A stretch of 64,000 nt of DNA, from the sequence record MN850636.1; one strand, written 5' to 3'. This document shows, piece after piece, positions 49,155 through 56,011 of this stretch (positions are counted from its first letter, which is position 1; the number at the start of each line of letters is the position of its first letter). This DNA is from Escherichia phage dune. A model generated the notes under the pieces. That model ran no database searches, had not been told where the DNA came from, and saw nothing but the letters and a program-made list of their open reading frames with translations. Position numbers and translations under genes: made by a program.

Positions 49155-49230
49155 TGGAGAATCCGAAGGGACTCGAACCCTTATAAACCTGTTTTGCAGA
49201 CAGGCACATATCCATTTCTGTCACGGATTC
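49155..49230 (-). tRNA. tRNA-Cys (anticodon GCA)
   Basis: Hand-folded cloverleaf: 7-bp acceptor, T-arm aaggg-TTCGAGT-ccctt, anticodon loop cuGCAaa, CCA encoded. Confidence 0.75.
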
Positions 49231-49234
49231 AAAT

Positions 49235-49327
49235 TGGAGGAAGATACCAGACTTGAACTGGTACACCGATTTCTCAGCTACTGGCAGTTTAGCAAACTGC
49301 TCCCTTACCTTTTAGGGTTAATCTTCC
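49235..49327 (-). tRNA. tRNA-Ser (anticodon GCT), long variable arm
   Basis: 93 nt, 7-bp acceptor, anticodon loop uuGCUaa. Confidence 0.7.
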
Positions 49328-49328
49328 A

Positions 49329-50063
49329 TTATTTCTGTAATGCGCTCTTCATTTCTGGTGTTGCAATAGTGTCAATCACACCAGTTTTACAAGCATCGTC
49401 AAACCAGTCTGGTAAGATACCTGCTAAGAACCCATTGATATTCGTTTTAAGGTACTCTGCAATAAGGGCAGCTTCTTCTTCAATCATCTGCACAACTTCA
49501 TCTGCATAAGCTGTAATCTTTGAAATACCTTCATTAATCTTACTGACAGCTTGGTTAGCTAAATCAGAAACAGTATCAAGACCCTTATCAATAGCATCTT
49601 GTAAGTCACTTAACACACCATTAACACTATCTAGTGTACTGTTCATCATGTCAATAGCTTTTTGACCATACTCTGTAGCAACACCCATGATACCACTGAA
49701 TGGTGTACAACCAACTTGTTCTCCTGCTGCACCCATAACATTGGAATACCCCTTTGCTACCTGCATACGTGATGAAAACTCATCAATAGATTTTTGACCG
49801 TAGTCTGTCAGAGTTTTAGTAGTTGCTGTAGTGCTTGTAAGGCTTGTTGTAAAGCTGTTTAGAAGGACTGTTGTAAGTCCAGCAGCAACAAGTTTCTCCT
49901 TCATTGTAGGGTCTGTTACAGAACTAATAGAGCTTACAAGTGATGTAGAAGCAGCTACGGTTCCACCGAGAACTGCTGCACCAGTAATAAGCGGGTTAGA
50001 GAACCCTTTACCAGTTTTTAAGAGATTAAAAATCTCCTTACCTTGTTCTGTCATCTCTTTCAT
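49329..50063 (-). CDS. Hypothetical protein (~244 aa) embedded in tRNA array
   Basis: ORF track; ATG 50063 after AAAGGTG RBS avoids overlap with tRNA-Phe. Confidence 0.5.
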   Translation of the reverse strand: MKEMTEQGKEIFNLLKTGKGFSNPLITGAAVLGGTVAASTSLVSSISSVTDPTMKEKLVAAGLTTVLLNSFTTSLTSTTATTKTLTDYGQKSIDEFSSRMQVAKGYSNVMGAAGEQVGCTPFSGIMGVATEYGQKAIDMMNSTLDSVNGVLSDLQDAIDKGLDTVSDLANQAVSKINEGISKITAYADEVVQMIEEEAALIAEYLKTNINGFLAGILPDWFDDACKTGVIDTIATPEMKSALQK

Positions 50064-50079
50064 TAAGCACCTTTGAAAT

Positions 50080-50156
50080 TGGTAGCCCAGTGGGATTTGA
50101 ACCCTCTTCTCATGTTTTTCAGACACGCGCTTTAACCATATAAGCTACTTGGACTA
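50080..50156 (-). tRNA. tRNA-Phe (anticodon GAA)
   Basis: Anticodon loop cuGAAaa; acceptor with one G-U. Confidence 0.6.
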
Positions 50157-50161
50157 TAAAT

Positions 50162-50237
50162 TGGGGTGACCTACGGGAGTCGAACCCGTATAGACCATGT
50201 TCACAGCATGGGTCATTACCATTTATGATAAGGCCAC
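50162..50237 (-). tRNA. tRNA-His (anticodon GTG)
   Basis: Anticodon loop cuGUGaa; perfect anticodon stem. Confidence 0.7.
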
Positions 50238-50267
50238 ATTTAAGGACTCTCGTAAGAACCCTTAGAA

Positions 50268-50344
50268 GTGGCAGCGGCATAAGGATTTGAACCTTAATCG
50301 GACAGCTTCAGAGACTGTTGCATTGCCAGTTATGCTATACCGCT
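50268..50344 (-). tRNA. tRNA-Gln (anticodon CTG)
   Basis: Anticodon loop cuCUGaa. Confidence 0.65.
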
Positions 50345-50349
50345 AAATT

Positions 50350-50429
50350 TGGTACTCCATATCGGATTCGAACCGATACATAACACAGATTTTAAGTCTG
50401 GCCTCTCTGCCAATTGGAGTAATGGAGCA
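50350..50429 (-). tRNA. tRNA with Leu anticodon TAA, short (~7 nt) variable loop
   Basis: Acceptor and T-arm good; anticodon loop cuUAAaa with 4-bp stem; 80 nt. Confidence 0.5.
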
Positions 50430-50430
50430 T

Positions 50431-50506
50431 TGGCGGGGGATGTTGGAATTGAACCAACTTCTTCGATTTCAAAGACCGAGGTTTTAACCTTGTAAACTAA
50501 TCCCCT
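50431..50506 (-). tRNA. tRNA-Gln (anticodon TTG)
   Basis: Anticodon loop cuUUGaa; D-stem guuu/aaac. Confidence 0.7.
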
Positions 50507-50514
50507 TTAAATCT

Positions 50515-51072
50515 TTACTTTCTCAGTGGATGAATAAAGAATGCCAACATAACTCTTTCCCTTGAGAATGCTCTTTCTTCTGGGACAACACTTTTAAGTT
50601 TCCATCCAACATAAATTCTCCAGTAAAACTGTTTACCAAAGACTTTAATTGACGGAATAAAAGCGAATAATCCCCAAGCATTGTTGTTCCACATTAGGAG
50701 ATAACCTGTCTGATTATCTTCAGGGTCAGAACTTACGTTGATATTACCTTTCCACTTAGTAACATCTTTTACATCTCTTCCTAATACATGGTAAGAGAAG
50801 TTATAAGCTTTGTTTCTCCAGAGCCATCCGACTCTCTGCATGTAGACACCCAGCTTACCAATCTTTCTAATCTTAGCCCATCTTTTAACGTGGCCTTCAT
50901 CACCATCAATTGGGTTGTCATAGGTCTCCATCCATCTGAATCCAAAAGGTAGATGTCCTTTCTTCTCACTGTAGAATGGAACTACGAAAGGTGCTAAGAT
51001 GACTGCTAGGGTTGCTGCAAATGGTTCTAGTAAAGCTAAGAAAATCCATGAAGCGTACTTCAAATATCTCAT
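50515..51072 (-). CDS. Hypothetical membrane protein (185 aa) embedded in tRNA array
   Basis: ORF track; N-terminal hydrophobic helix; flanked by tRNAs. Confidence 0.5.
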   Translation of the reverse strand: MRYLKYASWIFLALLEPFAATLAVILAPFVVPFYSEKKGHLPFGFRWMETYDNPIDGDEGHVKRWAKIRKIGKLGVYMQRVGWLWRNKAYNFSYHVLGRDVKDVTKWKGNINVSSDPEDNQTGYLLMWNNNAWGLFAFIPSIKVFGKQFYWRIYVGWKLKSVVPEERAFSRERVMLAFFIHPLRK

Positions 51073-51081
51073 TAAATAGCC

Positions 51082-51159
51082 TCTTTAAATTGGTGTTCCA
51101 AGACGGATTCGAACCGTCACTAATACAAGGTTTGAGCTTGCATCCTCTGCCAATTGGGA
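51082..51159 (-). tRNA. tRNA with Leu anticodon CAA, short variable loop
   Basis: Perfect acceptor, T-arm gacgg-TTCGAAT-ccgtc, anticodon loop cuCAAac, A73; 78 nt. Confidence 0.55.
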
Positions 51160-51161
51160 TA

Positions 51162-51235
51162 CTGGAACATGGTACTCACTAAAGGACTTGAACCTTTTTC
51201 TTCATCTTGTAAGGGTGGTGTTTTACCATATAAAC
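51162..51235 (-). tRNA. tRNA, probably Val (anticodon TAC); weak anticodon stem
   Basis: Acceptor, D- and T-arms fold; loop cuUACaa. Confidence 0.45.
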
Positions 51236-51244
51236 TAAGCGAGT

Positions 51245-51300
51245 GTGAAAGAGGTCTGAAGTTGTGCCGCTAACTCAACTCCGTGGAATTTGTTACGGTC
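51245..51300 (-). repeat. Member of GGTCTTC-motif structured repeat family (CTGAAG...CTTCAG stem)
   Basis: Shares ACGGTCTTCAG 3' motif with 53148-53812 copies. Confidence 0.4.
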
Positions 51301-51339
51301 TTCAGTTGACACCAGCGGTCTTTCACTTGACCTCTGAAT

Positions 51340-51415
51340 TGGTGCTCCCACAAGGATTCGAACCCTGATAAGTTGCTTACAAGGCAACCGTAATAGCCAA
51401 TTATACGATAGGAGC
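51340..51415 (-). tRNA. tRNA-Thr (anticodon TGT)
   Basis: Anticodon loop cuUGUaa, perfect anticodon stem. Confidence 0.7.
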
Positions 51416-51422
51416 ATTAATT

Positions 51423-51497
51423 TGGAGCATCCAGAGGGAATCGAACCCTCAACCTCAGTTTGGAAGACTGTAATTTTCCCGTTTAAACTATGGATGC
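51423..51497 (-). tRNA. tRNA-Gly (anticodon TCC)
   Basis: Anticodon loop cuUCCaa; perfect acceptor and T-arm. Confidence 0.7.
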
Positions 51498-51503
51498 ACT
51501 AAT

Positions 51504-51578
51504 TGGTGGAGTCACTGAGAATTGAACTCAGTTCCCAAGTTTGCAAAACTCGAATTTTAACCATATAAACTATGACCC
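51504..51578 (-). tRNA. tRNA-Ala (anticodon TGC)
   Basis: Anticodon loop uuUGCaa; G3:U70 pair in acceptor stem (alanine identity element). Confidence 0.8.
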
Positions 51579-51584
51579 CATTTT

Positions 51585-51660
51585 TGGTACAGGTGGAGGG
51601 AATTGAACCCATCGTCTTACTGATTAAGAGTCAGCCGCATAACCATTTTGCTACACCTGC
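51585..51660 (-). tRNA. tRNA-Lys (anticodon CTT)
   Basis: Anticodon loop cuCUUaa; paralog of 52809-52884. Confidence 0.6.
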
Positions 51661-51667
51661 ATTAATT

Positions 51668-51745
51668 TGGTAGGAGACAAGGGATTCGAACCCTCAAACA
51701 CCAACTTCTAAGGATGGTAGGTTTACCAATTACCGTCAATCTCCC
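51668..51745 (-). tRNA. tRNA with Leu anticodon TAG, short variable loop
   Basis: Anticodon loop cuUAGaa; acceptor 7 bp incl. 2 G-U; A73. Confidence 0.5.
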
Positions 51746-52001
51746 ATTAAATCTTTTTAGAGAACTTCTAAGAACCTGAGCAACAAGGTTCCACAACAAG
51801 CGACTAATAACCTTAGAAGCCCTCTAAAAAGACCTAAATAGGTCTTTGCATAGTCTTGTTTAATCCGGTGACTAGAACCTTTGGAGAGCTTGATATTATC
51901 TCTTCTCCGTGACACCTACTAGGTGCTTTGACAGTGTACGACAATACACGAGGGATAAACCGACAATGCGAACAAGCATGGACGGAGTAAATCTTATTAG
52001 G

Positions 52002-52089
52002 CGGTAAGTAAAGGAGTCGAACCCTCACCGTATCTCTACAGTGGCAACAGTTTTCAAGACTGTTTGGCTGCCATTAGCCGCTACCTACC
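52002..52089 (-). tRNA. tRNA-Ser (anticodon TGA), long variable arm
   Basis: 88 nt; perfect anticodon stem acagu/acugu, loop cuUGAaa. Confidence 0.7.
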
Positions 52090-52102
52090 CCTAATAAGAC
52101 TT

Positions 52103-52185
52103 TGGCATGGGACGGAGGAGTTGAACCCCTTTGAAACGGTTTTGGAGGCCGTTGCTCATGCCTTAGAGTCTTAACATCGTCCCAT
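52103..52185 (-). tRNA. tRNA-like, possibly Trp (anticodon CCA), enlarged D region
   Basis: Perfect 7-bp acceptor, T-arm, loop cuCCAaa; atypical 83 nt. Confidence 0.45.
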
Positions 52186-52327
52186 ATTATAATTCGAAGC
52201 TTACCCTGTTATCTCAACACTGTCAAGCTTCTTCTCAGATTATTTACATGTTCTGGAAAACATGAGATACAGACCACCTCCCTACAGGAAGACCCGCTAA
52301 GGCCGTCTAAGTAATCTGCTAACTATT

Positions 52328-52403
52328 TGGTACACCCTACAGGATTCGAACCTGTAACTAACGATTTAGAAGACCGTTGCTCTATCCAATTGAACTAAGG
52401 GTG
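52328..52403 (-). tRNA. tRNA-Arg (anticodon TCT)
   Basis: Anticodon loop cuUCUaa; perfect T-arm. Confidence 0.7.
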
Positions 52404-52650
52404 CATTATCTTTAAAGACTCTCTTAGAAAGCCCTTAAAGATGCCCACCTTATTAATCATACCGTGGGCGAGTACGCCAAATTCTTTGATGAGGGATTGG
52501 AAGACCTCACTGGTGTTTAGCCTATCAAGCTACTGCCAGAAAAACATTGTCGTTTGCATTTATTTTAAATTTGCAAAATAGACGCTACGCAACGAAAACT
52601 AAGGTTACTATAAAGTAGTCACATCTCAATGTCAACAACTTTATTGAAAT

Positions 52651-52726
52651 TGGTACTGGTAGGTGGAATCGAACCACCGATGTTCCCTTATCAGGGGAGT
52701 GTTATAACCTTCTTAACTATACCAGC
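52651..52726 (-). tRNA. tRNA-Ile (anticodon GAT)
   Basis: Anticodon loop cuGAUaa. Confidence 0.65.
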
Positions 52727-52727
52727 T

Positions 52728-52804
52728 TGGAGGTTCAGATGGGAATCGAACCCACATTCATAGGGCTTATGAGACCCTTGCATTACCTTATCTGCGACTG
52801 AACC
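52728..52804 (-). tRNA. tRNA-Met (anticodon CAT)
   Basis: Anticodon loop cuCAUaa; perfect acceptor. Confidence 0.65.
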
Positions 52805-52808
52805 ATAT

Positions 52809-52884
52809 TGGTAGAAGTGGAGGGATTCGAACCCATCGCCTGTCAGATTAAAAGTCTGCCGCATCACCATTCTGCTACACTTCC
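52809..52884 (-). tRNA. tRNA-Lys (anticodon TTT)
   Basis: Anticodon loop cuUUUaa. Confidence 0.6.
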
Positions 52885-52892
52885 ATTAAATT

Positions 52893-53020
52893 ATCTTTGT
52901 AGATAAGCTACCCAGACTTGCTTAAGGTCTGTAGCGATGTGCCTTTTTTGGGTTTAAATCTAGAATTTACCCATTCACCCTTTGTGGTCGCATACTCACA
53001 AGTAAGCTTAATAACTTATC
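52893..53020. repeat. Structured tRNA-free element bounded by perfect 13-bp inverted repeat CTTTGTAGATAAG / CTTATCTACAAAG
   Basis: Inverted repeat at 52895-52907 and 53006-53018 enclosing CAGAC/GTCTG hairpin. Confidence 0.5.
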
Positions 53021-53085
53021 TACAAAGGTAATTACCAGACCGTTGTTTATCATCTTAAGTGCTACCATTACACCAACTCGACATC

Positions 53086-53160
53086 TGCCGAGTGAAGGAA
53101 TCGAACCTTCGCCTTTTCTTTACCAGAGAAATAGATTGTTTAAGTTTTGCTGTAAACGGC
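53086..53160 (-). pseudogene. Degenerate tRNA-like gene (Thr-like, anticodon GGT) with weak acceptor stem
   Basis: Perfect T-arm (gaagg-TTCGATT-ccttc) and anticodon arm (uuucu-cuGGUaa-agaaa) but only 5/7 acceptor pairs and poor D-arm. Confidence 0.4.
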
Positions 53161-53169
53161 CTTCTGTAA

Positions 53170-53250
53170 ATTTGTTGAGCCAGACCAAGTTTTAAATTTT
53201 CAAAATTAAATTGGCTTGAAAATATCATACGTTCTTGCTGAATTTGGTCT
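53170..53250 (-). ncRNA. Structured repeat element copy 1 (AGACCAA...TTGGTCT stem; conserved TTGCTGAAtttGGTCTTCTG)
   Basis: 7-bp terminal stem; shared 30-nt motif with copies at 53584 and 53738. Confidence 0.45.
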
Positions 53251-53321
53251 TCTGCTCCTTTAAAGAATACTCGTAAGAACTCTTTAAGGGAGGGGCTAAA
53301 TAGCCCTCTCAAAATTGGCGG

Positions 53322-53398
53322 CTACGATGAGACTTGAACTCACATCATCTCCCGTGACAGGGGAGTATTTTCTCCAGTTAAACTACATAGCCTTTATT
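53322..53398 (-). tRNA. tRNA-Asp (anticodon GTC)
   Basis: Perfect anticodon stem cuccc/gggag, loop cuGUCac. Confidence 0.7.
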
Positions 53399-53403
53399 GG
53401 TGT

Positions 53404-53491
53404 GCCGTGTAGGAGTCGAACCTACCGAGTCTCAATGACAAGGGATTTACAGTCCCCACCGCTACCATCTACGGGATAACGACACATTTAA
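53404..53491 (-). tRNA. tRNA-Tyr (anticodon GTA), long variable arm
   Basis: 88 nt; loop cuGUAaa; perfect T-arm. Confidence 0.65.
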
Positions 53492-53499
53492 TTTGGCGG

Positions 53500-53576
53500 T
53501 TAGTCAGGGATTCGAACCCTGTGCCATTCGCTTAACAGGCGACCGCACATACCTTATGTGCTTCCTAACCTTAATA
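53500..53576 (-). tRNA. tRNA-Asn (anticodon GTT)
   Basis: Anticodon loop cuGUUaa; perfect T-arm caggg/ccctg. Confidence 0.65.
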
Positions 53577-53583
53577 CATTGCC

Positions 53584-53646
53584 AGACCGTGTTTTTTCTT
53601 TTATCCGCAAAAAAGTATTTTGTTGCTGAATACGGTCTTCTGCAAA
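53584..53646 (-). ncRNA. Structured repeat element copy 2 (AGACCGT...ACGGTCT stem)
   Basis: Stem carries compensatory AA/TT -> GT/AC change relative to copies 1 and 3. Confidence 0.45.
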
Positions 53647-53648
53647 AT

Positions 53649-53725
53649 TGGAGGCGGGTGCAGGAGTCGAACCTGCCGATACCATGCTAATGAGACATGT
53701 GAGACGCCCTTTCTCTATACCCGCA
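53649..53725 (-). tRNA. tRNA with anticodon CAT (second Met-type; initiator or Ile2 possible)
   Basis: Loop cuCAUua; U1:C72 mismatch at top of acceptor stem. Confidence 0.55.
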
Positions 53726-53737
53726 ATTCTTAATGAC

Positions 53738-53812
53738 CAGACCAAATCTCTTCTTTGTCCGATTTACCTTCAGATGAATAAGATTAAGTTTGCTGTAATT
53801 GGTCTTCTGTCA
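53738..53812 (-). ncRNA. Structured repeat element copy 3 (AGACCAA...TTGGTCT stem)
   Basis: 7-bp terminal stem, conserved TTGCTGTAATTGGTCTTCTG. Confidence 0.45.
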
Positions 53813-53819
53813 AAACTGG

Positions 53820-53897
53820 CGTTCCAGAAGGGATTTGAACCCTCAGATATCCACTTTGAAAGAGTGGTGACTATACCATTTTGTCTACTGGAACATT
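53820..53897 (-). tRNA. tRNA-Glu (anticodon TTC)
   Basis: Perfect acceptor and anticodon stem ccacu/agugg, loop cuUUCaa. Confidence 0.7.
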
Positions 53898-53904
53898 AAT
53901 TTGG

Positions 53905-53981
53905 TCTCTGTTGGAGGACTTGAACCTCCGGCCTTACCGCCCCAAACGGAACGCTCTACCAAGCTGAGCTAAACAGAGATA
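53905..53981 (-). tRNA. tRNA-Pro (anticodon TGG)
   Basis: Perfect acceptor, canonical D-arm GCUCAGCUUGGUAGAGC, loop uuUGGgg. Confidence 0.75.
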
Positions 53982-54142
53982 AACTTTTCAAACTCTATGT
54001 AACCACTTTAACATTATTTTTTAGTGGTTGTCAAGAACTTTTTTAAAATATTTTTCAGTATCTTAGAAAAGCTCTCATTTCGTTTCTATGTAGAACATAT
54101 TAAAGGGTATTAAACACATTGTCAATACCCTTTTAAAACTTT

Positions 54143-55558
54143 TTACCAGATGTAACGGTCAATCATTACTGCTTTGAGCATTACACTGATTGGGTCAAAC
54201 TTCTCACCACCAAGCAGAGCTTTTAAAGTAGCTGGAGAGAAACCTGATACCATTGCTACACCGTTATCCTTAACAGATACTTCGCAAGTACCATTACGGT
54301 TTGCTAAGTACCAGAATACCAGTTGTGGCATCTTATATCCAGCTTTTTTGTACTTACTACGAATTTCTTCAAAGTTTGTACGACCGTTAGCTCCATCAAC
54401 CTGATTGAACTCCATATCGGAGAAGATGATAAGCTTACTTGGCATATCTTTCTGAGTCAAGTTGTTTCTTTTACCTGTTTCAAGAATGCGGTCAAAAGCT
54501 GCTTGTAAGTTAGTTGAGCCATATTCAACGTGTCGCATCACCTGACGATGACGGTTTCGTAAATCACCGCTCAGTTCGATGAAGTGAGGGTTTGTTGAAT
54601 AAACCATTAACTCATTCTTAAAGCAACCTGTATTGCGTTCTGCTACATACAAGGCAAGTGATACACCAATATCCAGAGCAGTAATGGAGCCAAAATTCAC
54701 CCAAGACATTGAACTTGATACATCAGACATACACAAGATGTTTTCACCTTCTGCCATCCAGTTTGGTAGTGCTTTCCACTGCTCATTAGCAACATCTGCA
54801 TTACCATACTTGACAGATTTAATCACATCGTATGGGTAAACAGCACCAGCGTTAATCTTAGTCTCACCTTTTGATAAGGACTCGATGTAAGCTTTGTAAC
54901 GCTCTCCATCTTTACGGTTAAACAGTTTTTGGTAACGTGCAGCAGCAAGTGAAGGAATCTTACTGTAGTCAATCTTACCAAACTCATTAGCAGAGATTTT
55001 TTGCTCAACTGTATCAGATAGTGCAGACAACAGTGTGCGGTACTCTTTCTCACTCAAGTTGGCAAACTTGCAGAAACGTTTTACAAACTGCTTATGACGT
55101 GGTTTGACTCGTGGTAACCACTTAGCCGCCAAACCTGCTGTTGCAGGGTCTAGTAATGCTGCTTCTAAATGTTTGAAGGCATCTGTCTCGAAACGAGTAC
55201 CTACGAAGATTTTGAAGTCATCAAAACGACCAAGTTCTGCAATCTTATCCATAATGCGAAGAACCTGCATAGACTCTAAAACTTTGTCTTCAATCGCTTG
55301 AAGCAAAACAGTTCTGAAGGCTTTACGCTCACCCATACCTTCTCGTACATCTCGCATATGCAGTAAAATACGAACTGCAACATCAACATCCTCACGCAAA
55401 GCTTTGTAGAACAGGTCTGGTAAGATTTCTACATTGCTACGGCTTGAACCAGCAGCTTTGTAAAAGTCCACAAGAGCAGACATTGATGAAGTATGGTTTA
55501 CAGCACCATTTTCAGTTCGACCTGCATGAAGGTGCGCATGTTTAAATAATTCGCTCAT
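54143..55558 (-). CDS. vWA-domain protein with MIDAS motif (alpha-helical N-domain + C-terminal vWA); TROVE/Ro60-like architecture possible
   Basis: 471 aa; DxSxS MIDAS in CMSDVSSSMSW, downstream LIIFSDMEF beta-strand/Asp; heads the tRNA operon on the same strand. Confidence 0.65.
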   Translation of the reverse strand: MSELFKHAHLHAGRTENGAVNHTSSMSALVDFYKAAGSSRSNVEILPDLFYKALREDVDVAVRILLHMRDVREGMGERKAFRTVLLQAIEDKVLESMQVLRIMDKIAELGRFDDFKIFVGTRFETDAFKHLEAALLDPATAGLAAKWLPRVKPRHKQFVKRFCKFANLSEKEYRTLLSALSDTVEQKISANEFGKIDYSKIPSLAAARYQKLFNRKDGERYKAYIESLSKGETKINAGAVYPYDVIKSVKYGNADVANEQWKALPNWMAEGENILCMSDVSSSMSWVNFGSITALDIGVSLALYVAERNTGCFKNELMVYSTNPHFIELSGDLRNRHRQVMRHVEYGSTNLQAAFDRILETGKRNNLTQKDMPSKLIIFSDMEFNQVDGANGRTNFEEIRSKYKKAGYKMPQLVFWYLANRNGTCEVSVKDNGVAMVSGFSPATLKALLGGEKFDPISVMLKAVMIDRYIW

Positions 55559-55639
55559 ATTTTACTCTCTTCTCTCATTTGTTGTTTGATGTGACAGACT
55601 TTAGAGCAACTTTGTAGAGTCTGTCAACACCTTTTAAAA

Positions 55640-56011
55640 TTATTTTTTGAGAGTCGCTACAGCAGAGAACGTTGGTTTGTTATCTGTCTGTGGCTGACCA
55701 CCATTATCAGGGGTTTTCTTAGTGTCTGCTGCAAGTGCTTTCATCTCACCTGCTGAGTGAGTAAAGATGGTTTTACCGACCTCAATCATACTCTTGATGG
55801 TTACGTCGTCTGTGTTTAACCCGAACTCTGCAAGCTTAGCAGCGTCCCTTGTAACAATCGCCTCAAACAGTTTTGCAGCAAACTCAGCAGAATTATCAAT
55901 GGTCAGTTGAGCTTTTACAAGTGAGCTTTTGTTACGAGAGCCTTTTGGTCTTCCAGATGGGTTTCCAGATTGGCCTTTTTTAAACTGGCCTTTGTTTGTT
56001 CTGTTTTTCAT
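55640..56011 (-). CDS. Hypothetical protein with N-terminal KGQSGNPSGRPKGSRN motif
   Basis: 123 aa; conserved GNPxGRPKG-type basic N-terminus. Confidence 0.5.
   Translation of the reverse strand: MKNRTNKGQFKKGQSGNPSGRPKGSRNKSSLVKAQLTIDNSAEFAAKLFEAIVTRDAAKLAEFGLNTDDVTIKSMIEVGKTIFTHSAGEMKALAADTKKTPDNGGQPQTDNKPTFSAVATLKK

What the first reader, a model, noticed from the sequence alone, without database searches (positions are those of the whole stretch)
53086..55558. vWA/MIDAS protein heading a tRNA operon that contains non-tRNA structured RNA-like repeats: candidate Ro60/Y-RNA-like module
The 471-aa product of 54143-55558 has an alpha-helical N-terminal region and a C-terminal vWA fold with a clear MIDAS DxSxS motif (MSDVSSSMS). 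It sits on the same strand directly upstream of the 26-tRNA array, and within 1 kb downstream the array contains at least three ~65-80 nt structured elements that are not tRNAs. That architecture and placement are reminiscent of Ro60 (TROVE + vWA) with its tRNA-like Y RNAs, which would make this a phage RNA-surveillance or tRNA-handling module. The homology is not established here; it is inferred from domain order and genomic context only.
Basis: partly seen in the sequence, partly recalled or inferred. Interest (0 to 1): 0.75.

Follow-up and report, generated by a model that had tools for sequence, protein, structure and literature searches.

The report
Phage Ro60-like protein with partner RNAs
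A FelixO1-type phage encodes a ring-shaped Ro60-like protein next to four small non-tRNA RNAs hidden in its tRNA array, and these RNAs carry the same signature as the unexplained Class I RNAs of social amoebae.

Summary

Four non-tRNA elements lie on the same strand between the first tRNAs: E1 53734-53812, E2 53579-53645, E3 53177-53257, E4 53032-53169. All share a covarying 7-bp terminal helix, an invariant CAGCAA three bases after it, and an invariant G after the 3' strand. E4 also carries a permuted tRNA-like core, as bacterial YrlA does.

A model built from these RNAs finds the same element beside DUF2828 genes in 77 of 145 distant phage and MAG loci. All 103 hits are on the gene's strand. 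It finds none in T5's tRNA region or elsewhere in this window.

A 2024 preprint already noted the Ro60-like fold and guessed at Y RNAs for the 97%-identical Bas63 gp130, which counters the Ppl defence. What is new here is the identification of the RNAs themselves. Their motif differs from canonical Y RNAs. They match Dictyostelium Class I RNAs (AAG start, UUACAGCAA, CUG end). RNA binding and function remain untested.

The parts
54143..55558 (-). Gene for a 471-aa Ro60-fold protein: DUF2828 helical ring plus DUF7788 vWA domain with MIDAS D279-x-S281-x-S283, T349, D381
55598..55627 (-). Promoter-like site upstream of the gene (TTGACA-18-TAAAGT)
   Evidence: Consensus scan only; site counts in the region do not exceed shuffles.
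54005..54125 (-). Two promoter-like sites (54125-54097, 54034-54005) and a 12-bp hairpin (54133-54102) between the gene's stop codon and the first tRNA
   Evidence: Suggests the tRNA/RNA array can be transcribed on its own.
53734..53812 (-). E1: short Y-like RNA. Outer 4-bp stem, AGA/G internal loop, 7-bp core helix 53805-53799 with 53745-53739, CAGCAA at 53795-53790, invariant G at 53738. Lies between tRNA-Glu and tRNA-Met.
   Evidence: R1 score 48.3 bits. Rfam Dicty_Class_I 19.7 bits.
53579..53645 (-). E2: short Y-like RNA, CAGCAA at 53628-53623, between tRNA-Met and tRNA-Asn
   Evidence: Folding z-score -3.2. R1 score 49.8 bits. Rfam Dicty_Class_I 26.7 bits, E 0.078.
53177..53257 (-). E3: short Y-like RNA, CAGCAA at 53240-53235, after tRNA-Asp
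   Evidence: R1 score 41.5 bits.
53032..53169 (-). E4: long Y-like RNA. Same terminal helix and CAGCAA (53152-53147), enclosing a circularly permuted tRNA-like core: anticodon-like arm 53131-53115, T arm 53110-53094, loop-closed acceptor stem 53093-53076, D arm about 53074-53058.
   Evidence: Fold. Partial Rfam tRNA hit at 53093-53143, 26.8 bits. R1 score 29.1 bits. The core is conserved and the acceptor stem covaries in 9 sequences from 6 lineages.
53316..53978 (-). The six tRNA genes interleaved with E1-E3: Pro 53902-53978, Glu 53817-53894, Met 53649-53725, Asn 53494-53570, Tyr 53398-53485, Asp 53316-53392
   Evidence: ARAGORN and Rfam. E1 and E2 sit 4-8 nt from the neighbouring tRNAs, so tRNA-processing nucleases would release them.

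Best explanation
This is a phage version of the Ro60/Y-RNA ribonucleoprotein module. The gene encodes a divergent Ro60-type ring, a HEAT-like helical toroid plus a vWA/MIDAS domain, which Pfam files under DUF2828+DUF7788. The four neighbouring RNAs are its cognate partners. They are transcribed with the tRNAs and cut out by the tRNA-processing enzymes (inferred from the 4-8 nt spacing). The protein would recognise their shared module: a 7-bp terminal helix, the single-stranded UUA-CAGCAA that follows its 5' strand, and the unpaired G after its 3' strand. This module takes the place of the GGUCCGA / GNCGAA site of canonical Y RNAs. E4 additionally presents a tRNA-like body (T arm, D arm, closed acceptor stem), as bacterial YrlA does. 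That body would let the particle engage tRNA-binding enzymes or an exoribonuclease. During infection the particle acts on structured RNA, or on host factors, in a way that helps the phage. The one experimentally known output is that the orthologous protein neutralises the Ppl defence system. Shown here: the fold, the MIDAS motif, the RNA architecture and covariation, and the genomic linkage. Inferred: physical binding, processing, and what the particle does.

For: RNAs. The four copies share the architecture. In 23 seed elements from 9 lineages all 7 helix pairs covary while CAGCAA and the 3' G are invariant. In 70 independent non-seed hits the helix is 99.8% paired, with 178 double-change cells against 45 in shuffles and 36-43% pairing in slid controls.

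Linkage. The model R1 hits 33 of 65 IMG/VR loci and 44 of 80 GTDB loci that encode 33-47% identical homologs. All 103 hits are on the gene's strand, mostly within a few hundred nt of the gene. It finds nothing in T5's 48-kb tRNA region (best 13.9 bits) and nothing elsewhere in this window.

tRNA-like members occur in 6 lineages. Two relatives score sub-threshold on Rfam YrlA directly after the gene: 39.6 and 39.8 bits, E about 1e-5.

Experiment from the literature. Bas63 gp130 (97% identical) counters Ppl (PMC11482910).
Against: No direct evidence exists that the RNAs are stable transcripts or that the protein binds them. Pfam TROVE does not match at E<=0.1, and the N-terminal ring shows no significant profile-profile match to TROVE. 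Homology of that part therefore rests on structure alone. The Rfam Y_RNA and YrlA models do not detect the window's elements. The canonical Ro-binding motif is absent. gp130 alone rescues T7, which has none of these RNAs, on a Ppl host. At least that activity therefore does not need the phage RNAs. About half of the distant loci gave no R1 hit within the flanks searched.
Confidence: 0.65

Rival explanations
1. The protein works alone as a protein-level inhibitor of a host defence such as Ppl, for example through its vWA/MIDAS face. The neighbouring RNAs are irrelevant to that function, and the Ro60-like fold is an evolutionary leftover.
For: gp130 expressed from a plasmid, or inserted into T7, restores T7 plaquing on a Ppl host without any Felix-type RNAs (PMC11482910). 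The MIDAS residues are invariant.
Against: This does not explain why the CAGCAA RNAs track the gene, on its strand, across phages of Actinobacteria, Firmicutes, Proteobacteria, Campylobacter and MAG contigs. It also does not explain the conserved basic residues of the ring. Host RNAs could substitute in the T7 experiment. The two views are not exclusive.
Confidence: 0.3
2. The elements are cis-acting sites on the messenger or precursor RNA, such as autoregulatory operators or processing and stability signals, rather than stable trans-acting Y-like RNAs.
For: In most MAG loci, and in the Campylobacter, Listeria, Enterococcus and Sinorhizobium phages, the elements lie just upstream of the gene. 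In Vibrio phage ValKK3 one copy overlaps the ribosome-binding site and the ATG of the DUF2828 gene itself (L003 3961-4009).
Against: In this window and all Ounavirinae the elements lie downstream of the gene. They are separated from it by promoter-like sites and packed between tRNAs like extra tRNA units. Several per locus, one with a tRNA-like body, is the Y-RNA pattern (rsr-yrlB-yrlA). Canonical Y RNA genes are also co-transcribed with rsr. This rival still implies binding by the protein.
Confidence: 0.15
3. The elements belong to the tRNA array and not to the protein. They would be spacer or processing structures, tRNA-gene remnants, or decoys for tRNA-targeting nucleases, and the adjacency to the DUF2828 gene would be incidental.
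For: They are embedded in the array, and E4 looks tRNA-derived. T5 also has unexplained stable RNAs among its tRNAs (annotation).
Against: LeBron, Krypton555 and Staphylococcus phage 6ec have three elements beside the gene with no tRNA array around them. T5's array has no R1 hit. The rest of this phage's own array (49155-52884) has none.
Confidence: 0.07
4. E4 is a circularly permuted tRNA gene that matures into a working tRNA-Thr(GGU).
For: E4 has all four arms in permuted order and a 7-nt anticodon-like loop, CUGGUAA.
Against: The anticodon-like arm is not conserved. The loop is CUUAUAA in Sf16, the arm is a different hairpin in HP1, and it is absent in FBKp34, LeBron and Krypton555. The T arm, D arm and closed acceptor stem are kept throughout. 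No permuted-tRNA maturation pathway is known in bacteria (my knowledge).
Confidence: 0.03

Closest known systems
Bacterial Ro60 (Rsr) with YrlA/YrlB or Yrn1 Y RNAs (Salmonella, Deinococcus; Chen et al. 2014, PMC4201824)
   Same: A ring of helical repeats plus a vWA/MIDAS domain. Several small RNA genes sit next to the protein gene on the same strand. One RNA has a tRNA-like T arm, D arm and loop-closed acceptor stem, and the others are shorter. Each has a terminal helix joining its 5' and 3' ends.
   Different: The protein is DUF2828/DUF7788 rather than Pfam TROVE, at 11-16% identity. The conserved RNA motif is UUACAGCAA instead of GNCGAA(N)G. The RNAs are interleaved with real tRNAs. E4 keeps an anticodon-like arm. 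The Rfam YrlA model does not detect the window's RNAs.
Thermus phage phiLo Ro60 with Yrl1/Yrl2 (PMC12135203; PDB 9KOP, 9L5Y), and the TROVE proteins of mycobacteriophages, CcrColossus, Bacillus phage G and jumbo phages (PMC7824862)
   Different: Those proteins are TROVE-domain proteins with CGAA-motif RNAs. This is a separate and much larger phage family: 709 phage records carry a homolog. It has its own RNA signature.
Bas63 gp130 (PhageMaP preprint, PMC11482910)
   Same: The same gene, at 97% identity and in the same position before the tRNAs. The authors noted the structural similarity to Ro60 and proposed Y RNA partners.
   Different: They guessed that some annotated tRNAs are the Y RNAs. 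The candidates found here lie in the unannotated gaps (L017 10070-10910), where Bas63 carries two small opposite-strand CDS annotations. The RNA motif, its spread across phages and the Class I resemblance are not in that paper's text as read here.
Dictyostelium Class I RNAs (Rfam RF01414; Kjellin et al. 2021, PMC7919456)
   Same: Size of 42-80 nt. A short covarying helix joins the 5' and 3' ends. The start is AAG and the end is CUG(U). The conserved single-stranded motif (C)UUACAGCAA follows the 5' strand directly, and the rest is variable and A/U-rich. RF01414 is the best Rfam family, apart from tRNA and YrlA matches, for 7 phage elements in three phage lineages (17-27 bits, 5 of them at E 0.02-0.08).
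   Different: All hits are below Rfam's gathering score (41.5). The linker between helix and CAGCAA is 4 nt in Dictyostelium and 3 nt in phages. Class I RNAs are eukaryotic, have their own DUSE promoters, are reported as unique to dictyostelids, and have Rnp1A/CIBP as their known binder. No DUF2828 link has been reported.
Stable RNAs in the tRNA region of phage T5 (RNA1, RNA2 'tRNA-like', RNAI, RNAIII and others; annotation of NC_005859)
   Same: Non-tRNA stable RNAs of unknown function interspersed with phage tRNAs.
   Different: T5 has no DUF2828 gene among the tblastn hits and no match to the CAGCAA model.

Membership tests
Ro60 / TROVE protein family | Match to the Pfam TROVE domain model (PF05731) | tested here: not met
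   hmmscan at E<=0.1 returns only DUF7788 and DUF2828. Genuine Rsr relatives carry PF05731+PF25045.
Ro60 / TROVE protein family | Helical-repeat ring followed by a vWA domain, superposable on solved Ro60 structures | tested here: met
Ro60 / TROVE protein family | MIDAS motif DxSxS...T...D in the vWA domain | tested here: met
   D279, S281, S283, T349 and D381 are invariant in 36 homologs.
Ro60 / TROVE protein family | Sequence homology detectable by profile-profile comparison | tested here: inconclusive
   hhalign of A2 against TROVE alignment A6 gives 90.7% probability, E 1.3e-6. It covers only profile columns 231-455 (last ring helix plus vWA). The N-terminal ring is not aligned.
Ro60 / TROVE protein family | Binds Y RNA or misfolded RNA | not testable with these tools
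   Needs biochemistry. Only genomic linkage is shown.
Bacterial Y RNA, YrlA type (Rfam RF02553) | Score at or above the family's gathering threshold (69 bits) | tested here: not met
   None of E1-E4 is matched by YrlA at E<=10; the one weak YrlA match in the scanned stretch lies elsewhere in the array, at 50094-50216, 19.6 bits. Relatives reach 39.6 bits (FBKp34) and 39.8 bits (LeBron) directly after the gene.
Bacterial Y RNA, YrlA type (Rfam RF02553) | tRNA-like domain (T arm, D arm, loop-closed acceptor stem) inside a terminal helix, encoded next to the Ro60 gene | tested here: met
   E4 fold. Consensus of 9 sequences from 6 lineages shows a conserved GGUUCRAnUCC T loop, a D arm and a covarying acceptor stem.
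Bacterial Y RNA, YrlA type (Rfam RF02553) | GNCGAA(N)G motif near the 5' end (proposed Ro contact; PMC4201824) | tested here: not met
   The position is occupied by UUACAGCAA, invariant CAGCAA in 23 seeds, where it was required by the scanner. In 70 independent hits each CAGCAA position is conserved in at least 68 of 70.
Dictyostelium Class I RNA (Rfam RF01414) | Score at or above the gathering threshold (41.5 bits) | tested here: not met
   E2 26.7 bits and E1 19.7 bits. FBKp34 25.2, 23.6 and 15.5 bits. Staphylococcus phage 6ec 22.4 bits twice.
Dictyostelium Class I RNA (Rfam RF01414) | Short covarying terminal helix, AAG start, CUG(U) end, and the 11-nt motif CCUUACAGCAA next to the 5' strand | tested here: met
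   Phage consensus is a-AGG-nnnn-UUA-CAGCAA...nnnn-CCU-G. The helix covaries. A PSSM built from phage elements only scores Class I RNAs at 13.5-17 bits on the 5' block, with 0 of 300 shuffles as high. Nine of the 11 motif letters are shared, and the linker is 1 nt shorter.
Dictyostelium Class I RNA (Rfam RF01414) | DUSE promoter about 60 nt upstream; dictyostelid host | tested here: not met
   This is a phage of enterobacteria, where sigma-70-type sites are the relevant signals. Shared ancestry therefore cannot be claimed from these data.
Pfam DUF2828 + DUF7788 | Scores above the curated cut-offs for both models | tested here: met
   102.2 bits (cut-off 29) and 146.2 bits (cut-off 27.1). Same result for the LeBron, FBKp34 and ValKK3 homologs.
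Ppl counter-defence protein gp130 of Bas63 | Orthology to the tested protein | tested here: met
   458 of 471 residues identical, with the same neighbours. The anti-Ppl activity itself was not tested for this phage.

The most novel reading that the evidence does not exclude
The CAGCAA-module RNA is an ancient, cross-kingdom partner of DUF2828-type Ro60-like proteins, and the Class I RNAs of Dictyostelium are its eukaryotic members. Class I RNAs have been abundant and developmentally regulated but of unknown function since 2004, and were thought unique to dictyostelids. On this reading they are Y-RNA-like cofactors of a DUF2828 protein. DUF2828 occurs in plants and mimivirus-like sequences. [quoted passage not shown] The high-scoring Arabidopsis candidate that Kjellin et al. 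dismissed (CM score 40) would be another member.
Probability: 0.3. Interest if true: 0.9.

Novelty: new variant of a known kind. Interest (0 to 1): 0.72.

Why it matters
Ro60/Y-RNA particles are a classic but still poorly understood RNA-surveillance system, and Ro60 is a human autoantigen. This result extends that system in four ways.

1. It gives DUF2828, a very large uncharacterised family, a concrete and testable RNA ligand with a defined recognition module. Homologs occur in 709 phage records and in MAG contigs assigned to many bacterial phyla (and one archaeal), and the family is reported from plants and giant-virus-like sequences.

2. It shows that the unannotated gaps in phage tRNA arrays hold a conserved class of non-coding RNAs. 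Current annotations miss these RNAs or overwrite them with spurious small CDSs.

3. It supplies the missing RNA component for a protein already shown to defeat the Ppl defence system. That makes the mechanism of counter-defence addressable.

4. It offers the first lead from outside the dictyostelids on what Class I RNAs might do.

Tried and rejected
- Sequence searches of PDB with the protein and with its family profile found nothing relevant. NCBIfam and PADLOC gave no hit.
- hhalign against human Ro60 alone was weak (46.8%, vWA domain only). I then built a TROVE alignment from Rsr relatives.
- An Rfam scan of seven distant loci together (66 kb) lost the weak Class I hits to the filters and E-value scaling. 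Small-window scans were needed. The Bacillus phage scan gave only a 17.4-bit partial hit.
- I could not establish whether Dictyostelium has a DUF2828 protein, or what DDB_G0281243 is. The afdb50 fold library was unavailable. Avesson 2011, Aspegren 2004 and the Sim 2020 review are not held. Motif-string searches of the truncated Dictyostelium proteome files in the Kjellin supplement found only an unrelated Ras/Sec23-like vWA protein. The protein search tools list only the top hits, which are all phage.
- A functional permuted tRNA was considered for E4 and rejected, because its anticodon-like arm is not conserved.
- A mobile-repeat origin (MITE-like or homing-endonuclease-associated) was considered and rejected. 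The elements sit at the same positions in related phages, always on one strand, and their helix covaries.
- The outgroup Class I candidates of Kjellin et al. other than ath_can_1 score 15-33 bits in very large genomes and were not taken as evidence.
Full report
**What the window is.** The region is 96-99% identical to FelixO1-type coliphages, 99.0% to Escherichia phage fjerdesal. Annotators call the gene under study 'vWFA protein', 'DUF2828 family protein', 'hypothetical protein' or, in RefSeq, 'RNA-binding protein'.

**The observation.**
- The ORF at 54143-55558(-) encodes 471 aa with the stretch CMSDVSSSMSW.
- ARAGORN finds 25 minus-strand tRNAs between 49155 and 53978. Rfam confirms 23 of them at gathering score.
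- A search for the repeated words seen in the intergenic sequence located four copies of CAGAAGRCC ... GGTCTGG on the minus strand, between or just after the first six tRNAs of the array, and none on the plus strand there.
- With their outer stems the elements are E1 53812->53734, E2 53645->53579, E3 53257->53177 and E4 53169->53032.
- All four fold into the same frame: a 4-bp outer stem that differs in every copy (UGAC/GUCA, UUGC/GCAA, GAGC/GCUC, UUAC/GUAA), an AGA/G internal loop, a 7-8-bp core helix, then U-N-CAGCAA, a variable A/U-rich middle, and the 3' strand GGUCU followed by G.
- E4 encloses a T arm (GAAGGUUCGAUUCCUUC), an acceptor-like stem closed by a tetraloop, a D arm and an anticodon-like hairpin, in circularly permuted order. 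Rfam's tRNA model matches part of it at 26.8 bits.
- Promoter-like TTGACA sites precede the gene and also lie between the gene and the first tRNA. A single operon is therefore not shown.

**The protein.**
- Pfam gives DUF2828 (N-terminal part) and DUF7788 (C-terminal part), not TROVE. PHROG 850 labels the family 'RNA-binding protein'.
- An alignment of 36 homologs down to 42% identity has invariant D279, S281, S283, T349 and D381, which is a full MIDAS motif. It also has a string of invariant Arg and Lys residues in the helical part.
- The AlphaFold2 model is confident (pLDDT 88.8, pTM 0.88).
- In Foldseek against PDB, the eleven best hits are all Ro60 or TROVE proteins aligned over the whole chain: Xenopus and human Ro60, Deinococcus Rsr, and Thermus phage phiLo Ro60. 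Every later hit is a lone vWA domain.
- I rebuilt Rsr's sequence from a PDB alignment, collected its relatives and aligned them. Profile-profile comparison with this family gives 90.7% probability, E 1.3e-6, over the last ring helix plus the vWA domain. The N-terminal ring is similar by structure only.
- Conclusion: a Ro60-fold protein of a family that Pfam keeps separate from TROVE.

**The family and its neighbourhood.**
- tblastn finds homologs in 709 phage records: Escherichia, Salmonella, Mycobacterium (annotated 'Ro-like RNA binding protein'), Vibrio, Listeria, Staphylococcus, Campylobacter, Enterococcus, Bacillus and others.
- In eleven distant lineages the gene lies beside tRNA genes or arrays in most cases. 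In the Listeria phage an RtcB-type ligase is 1.3 kb away.

**The RNAs elsewhere.**
- A simple scanner looked for a helix of at least 6 bp, up to 5 nt of linker, CAGCAA, 18-150 nt, and the complementary strand. It found 1-5 intergenic elements beside the gene, on its strand, in nearly every one of those lineages. In Vibrio phage ValKK3 only a weak copy was found (R1 19.9 bits, E 0.12). The four orthologous elements are present in other Ounavirinae.
- Twenty-three short elements from nine lineages align cleanly. They show a 7-bp helix, a 3-nt linker (mostly UUA), invariant CAGCAA and an invariant G after the 3' strand.
- All seven pairs covary, with 63 double changes against 17 in shuffles. The scanner required a helix, so the pairing percentage there is partly circular. 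The fixed register and the invariant G are not.
- The covariance model R1 finds only E1-E4 in the 64-kb window. Across 201 kb of window plus loci it gives 47 hits, all on the gene's strand. It finds nothing in 48 kb of phage T5 that holds 25 tRNAs and no DUF2828 gene.
- On loci that played no part in building the model, R1 hits 33 of 65 IMG/VR loci (39 hits) and 44 of 80 GTDB genome/MAG loci (64 hits). All are on the gene's strand, and most lie within a few hundred nt of the gene.
- In 70 of these independent hits the helix is 99.8% paired, with 178 double-change cells (45 in shuffles) and 36-43% pairing when the partner is slid. This alignment is fitted to the model, which favours pairing. 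The slid controls and the double changes carry the argument.
- The consensus of the independent hits is a-A-G-G-n-u-n-s UUA CAGCAA a ... s-n-a-n-C-C-U G.

**The tRNA-like members.**
- Nine long elements from six lineages share the terminal helix and CAGCAA, a near-invariant T loop, a D arm, and a loop-closed acceptor stem that covaries.
- Rfam's YrlA model scores two of them at about 40 bits (E about 1e-5), directly after the gene in Klebsiella phage FBKp34 and mycobacteriophage LeBron.
- Each locus thus has one tRNA-like RNA and a few short ones. This is the pattern of rsr-yrlB-yrlA loci described by Chen et al. 2014 (PMC4201824).
[quoted passage not shown] Here it is UUACAGCAA.

**What was already known.**
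- Phage TROVE proteins with Y-like RNAs are documented in mycobacteriophages, CcrColossus, Bacillus phage G, Thermus phage phiLo and jumbo phages.
- Most relevant is the PhageMaP preprint. [quoted passage not shown] It also reports that deleting g130 sensitises Bas63 to the Ppl defence, and that gp130 alone rescues T7 on a Ppl host.
- Bas63 gp130 is 97% identical to the window's protein.
- Bas63 has the same four elements, in gaps that carry no RNA annotation and two small opposite-strand CDSs.
The actual RNAs, their recognition module and their distribution are new as far as the held literature shows. DUF2828 appears in five papers and PF11443 in none, and none of these concern RNA.

**The unexpected resemblance.**
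- Apart from tRNA and YrlA matches, the best Rfam family for the short elements is Dicty_Class_I_RNA. This held in four small-window scans. Scores were E2 26.7 and E1 19.7 bits, FBKp34 25.2, 23.6 and 15.5, and Staphylococcus phage 6ec 22.4 twice, with an exact CUUACAGCAAU. A Bacillus phage gave only a 17.4-bit partial hit.
- All are below the family's 41.5-bit threshold, with E-values of 0.02-0.08 after correction for 4227 families.
- Kjellin et al. 2021 define Class I RNAs as follows: 42-65 nt, a short covarying helix joining the ends, a conserved start AAG and end CUGU, and the 11-nt motif CCUUACAGCAA next to the 5' strand, with the rest variable. They report no Class I genes outside Dictyostelia.
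- The phage consensus from independent hits carries the same conserved letters in the same places. One difference is the linker: 4 nt (CUUA) in Dictyostelium and 3 nt (UUA) in phages.
- A weight matrix built from phage elements only scores Class I RNAs taken from the paper's supplement at 13.5-17 bits on the 5' block. That is the range of the phage seeds themselves, and 0 of 300 shuffles reach it.
- The preprint version of the paper lists the proteins pulled down with Class I RNA DdR-21: GuaB, NdkC, CIBP/Rnp1A and DDB_G0281243 'of unknown function'.
- I could not obtain that protein's sequence or test whether dictyostelids have a DUF2828 protein. DUF2828 is reported from plants and mimivirus-like sequences.
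- This is a lead, not a finding. It could reflect common descent, horizontal transfer via amoeba viruses, or convergence on a common binder.

**Mechanism and confidence.**
- Best supported: a Ro60-type ring that binds the helix-UUACAGCAA-G module of RNAs released from the tRNA precursor, with the tRNA-like member acting as an adaptor, as YrlA does.
- The only experimental output is Ppl counter-defence, which the protein can deliver without the phage RNAs in T7. The RNAs may therefore regulate, target or extend the protein's activity rather than being required for it.
- Speculation from my own knowledge: PHP-domain enzymes include the 5'-3' exoribonuclease RNase AM, so Ppl might act on RNA. This is not tested.

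Noticed in passing
L001 7003-7116 (Klebsiella phage FBKp34); L008 5895-6015 and 6025-6137 (Cronobacter phage S13): Over-long 'tRNAs' (113-121 nt, with encoded CCA) carry an insertion between the D arm and the anticodon arm. The insertion is a hairpin followed by UUUACAGCA or UAUUCAGCA. This is the same module as in E1-E4, but closed by a loop while the acceptor ends are open, so it is the circular permutation of the E4 layout.
   Followed up: partly
L003 3961-4009 (Vibrio phage ValKK3): A copy of the module (GACAUU-UUA-CAGCAA...AAUGUC-AG) spans the ribosome-binding site and the ATG of the DUF2828 gene itself. This suggests autoregulation of translation in that lineage. The R1 score is only 19.9 bits (E 0.12).
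   Followed up: partly
L005 2428-2979 (Listeria phage LMTA-34): A ROOL RNA match (88.5 bits, just under the 99.1 gathering score) lies about 1 kb upstream of the DUF2828 gene, among tRNAs. An RtcB-type ligase and a tRNA amidotransferase lie downstream.
   Followed up: no
window 51745-52000, 52089-52328, 52404-52651, 52884-53032: Four further gaps of 150-255 nt in the tRNA array have no tRNA, no R1 hit and only weak Rfam hits (tmRNA_permuted 29.2 bits at 52525-52709; tRNA-Sec-like 23 bits at 52109-52183). Their content is unexplained.
   Followed up: no
L017 10749-11023 (Bas63 bas63_0137, bas63_0138) and similar small CDSs in other Felixounavirus records: Small hypothetical CDSs annotated on the opposite strand overlap E3 and E4. 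They are probably annotation artefacts over RNA genes.
   Followed up: partly
L016 10285-13950 (phage T5, NC_005859): T5's tRNA region carries annotated 'stable RNAs with unknown functions', two of them called tRNA-like. They do not match the CAGCAA model, so they are a different, still unexplained set.
   Followed up: partly
window 55640-56011 (-): A 123-aa DUF5681 protein sits immediately upstream of the Ro60-like gene. The pairing is kept in a 63%-identical relative (L015 3575-3946) and across Ounavirinae.
   Followed up: no
window 50515-51072 (-) and 49329-50126 (-): Two protein-coding ORFs sit inside the tRNA array: a 185-aa DUF7338 protein and a 265-aa ORF. The 5' end of the second overlaps tRNA-Phe (50080-50155).
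   Followed up: no
Kjellin et al. 2021, Supplemental Table S4: The Arabidopsis candidate ath_can_1 (UGUUUUC-AUUACAGCAAUCAAAC...GAAAAC-UG) scores 40 with the authors' Class I model, as high as genuine Class I RNAs. It was dismissed for being alone in its genome. Plants have DUF2828 genes.
   Followed up: no
L110 2715-2873 (Pacearchaeota MAG contig, 425 kb) and L128 4509-4566 (Nodosilinea chromosome CP089923): The gene and its RNA module also occur on an archaeal MAG contig and on a complete cyanobacterial chromosome. Whether these are prophages was not checked.
   Followed up: no
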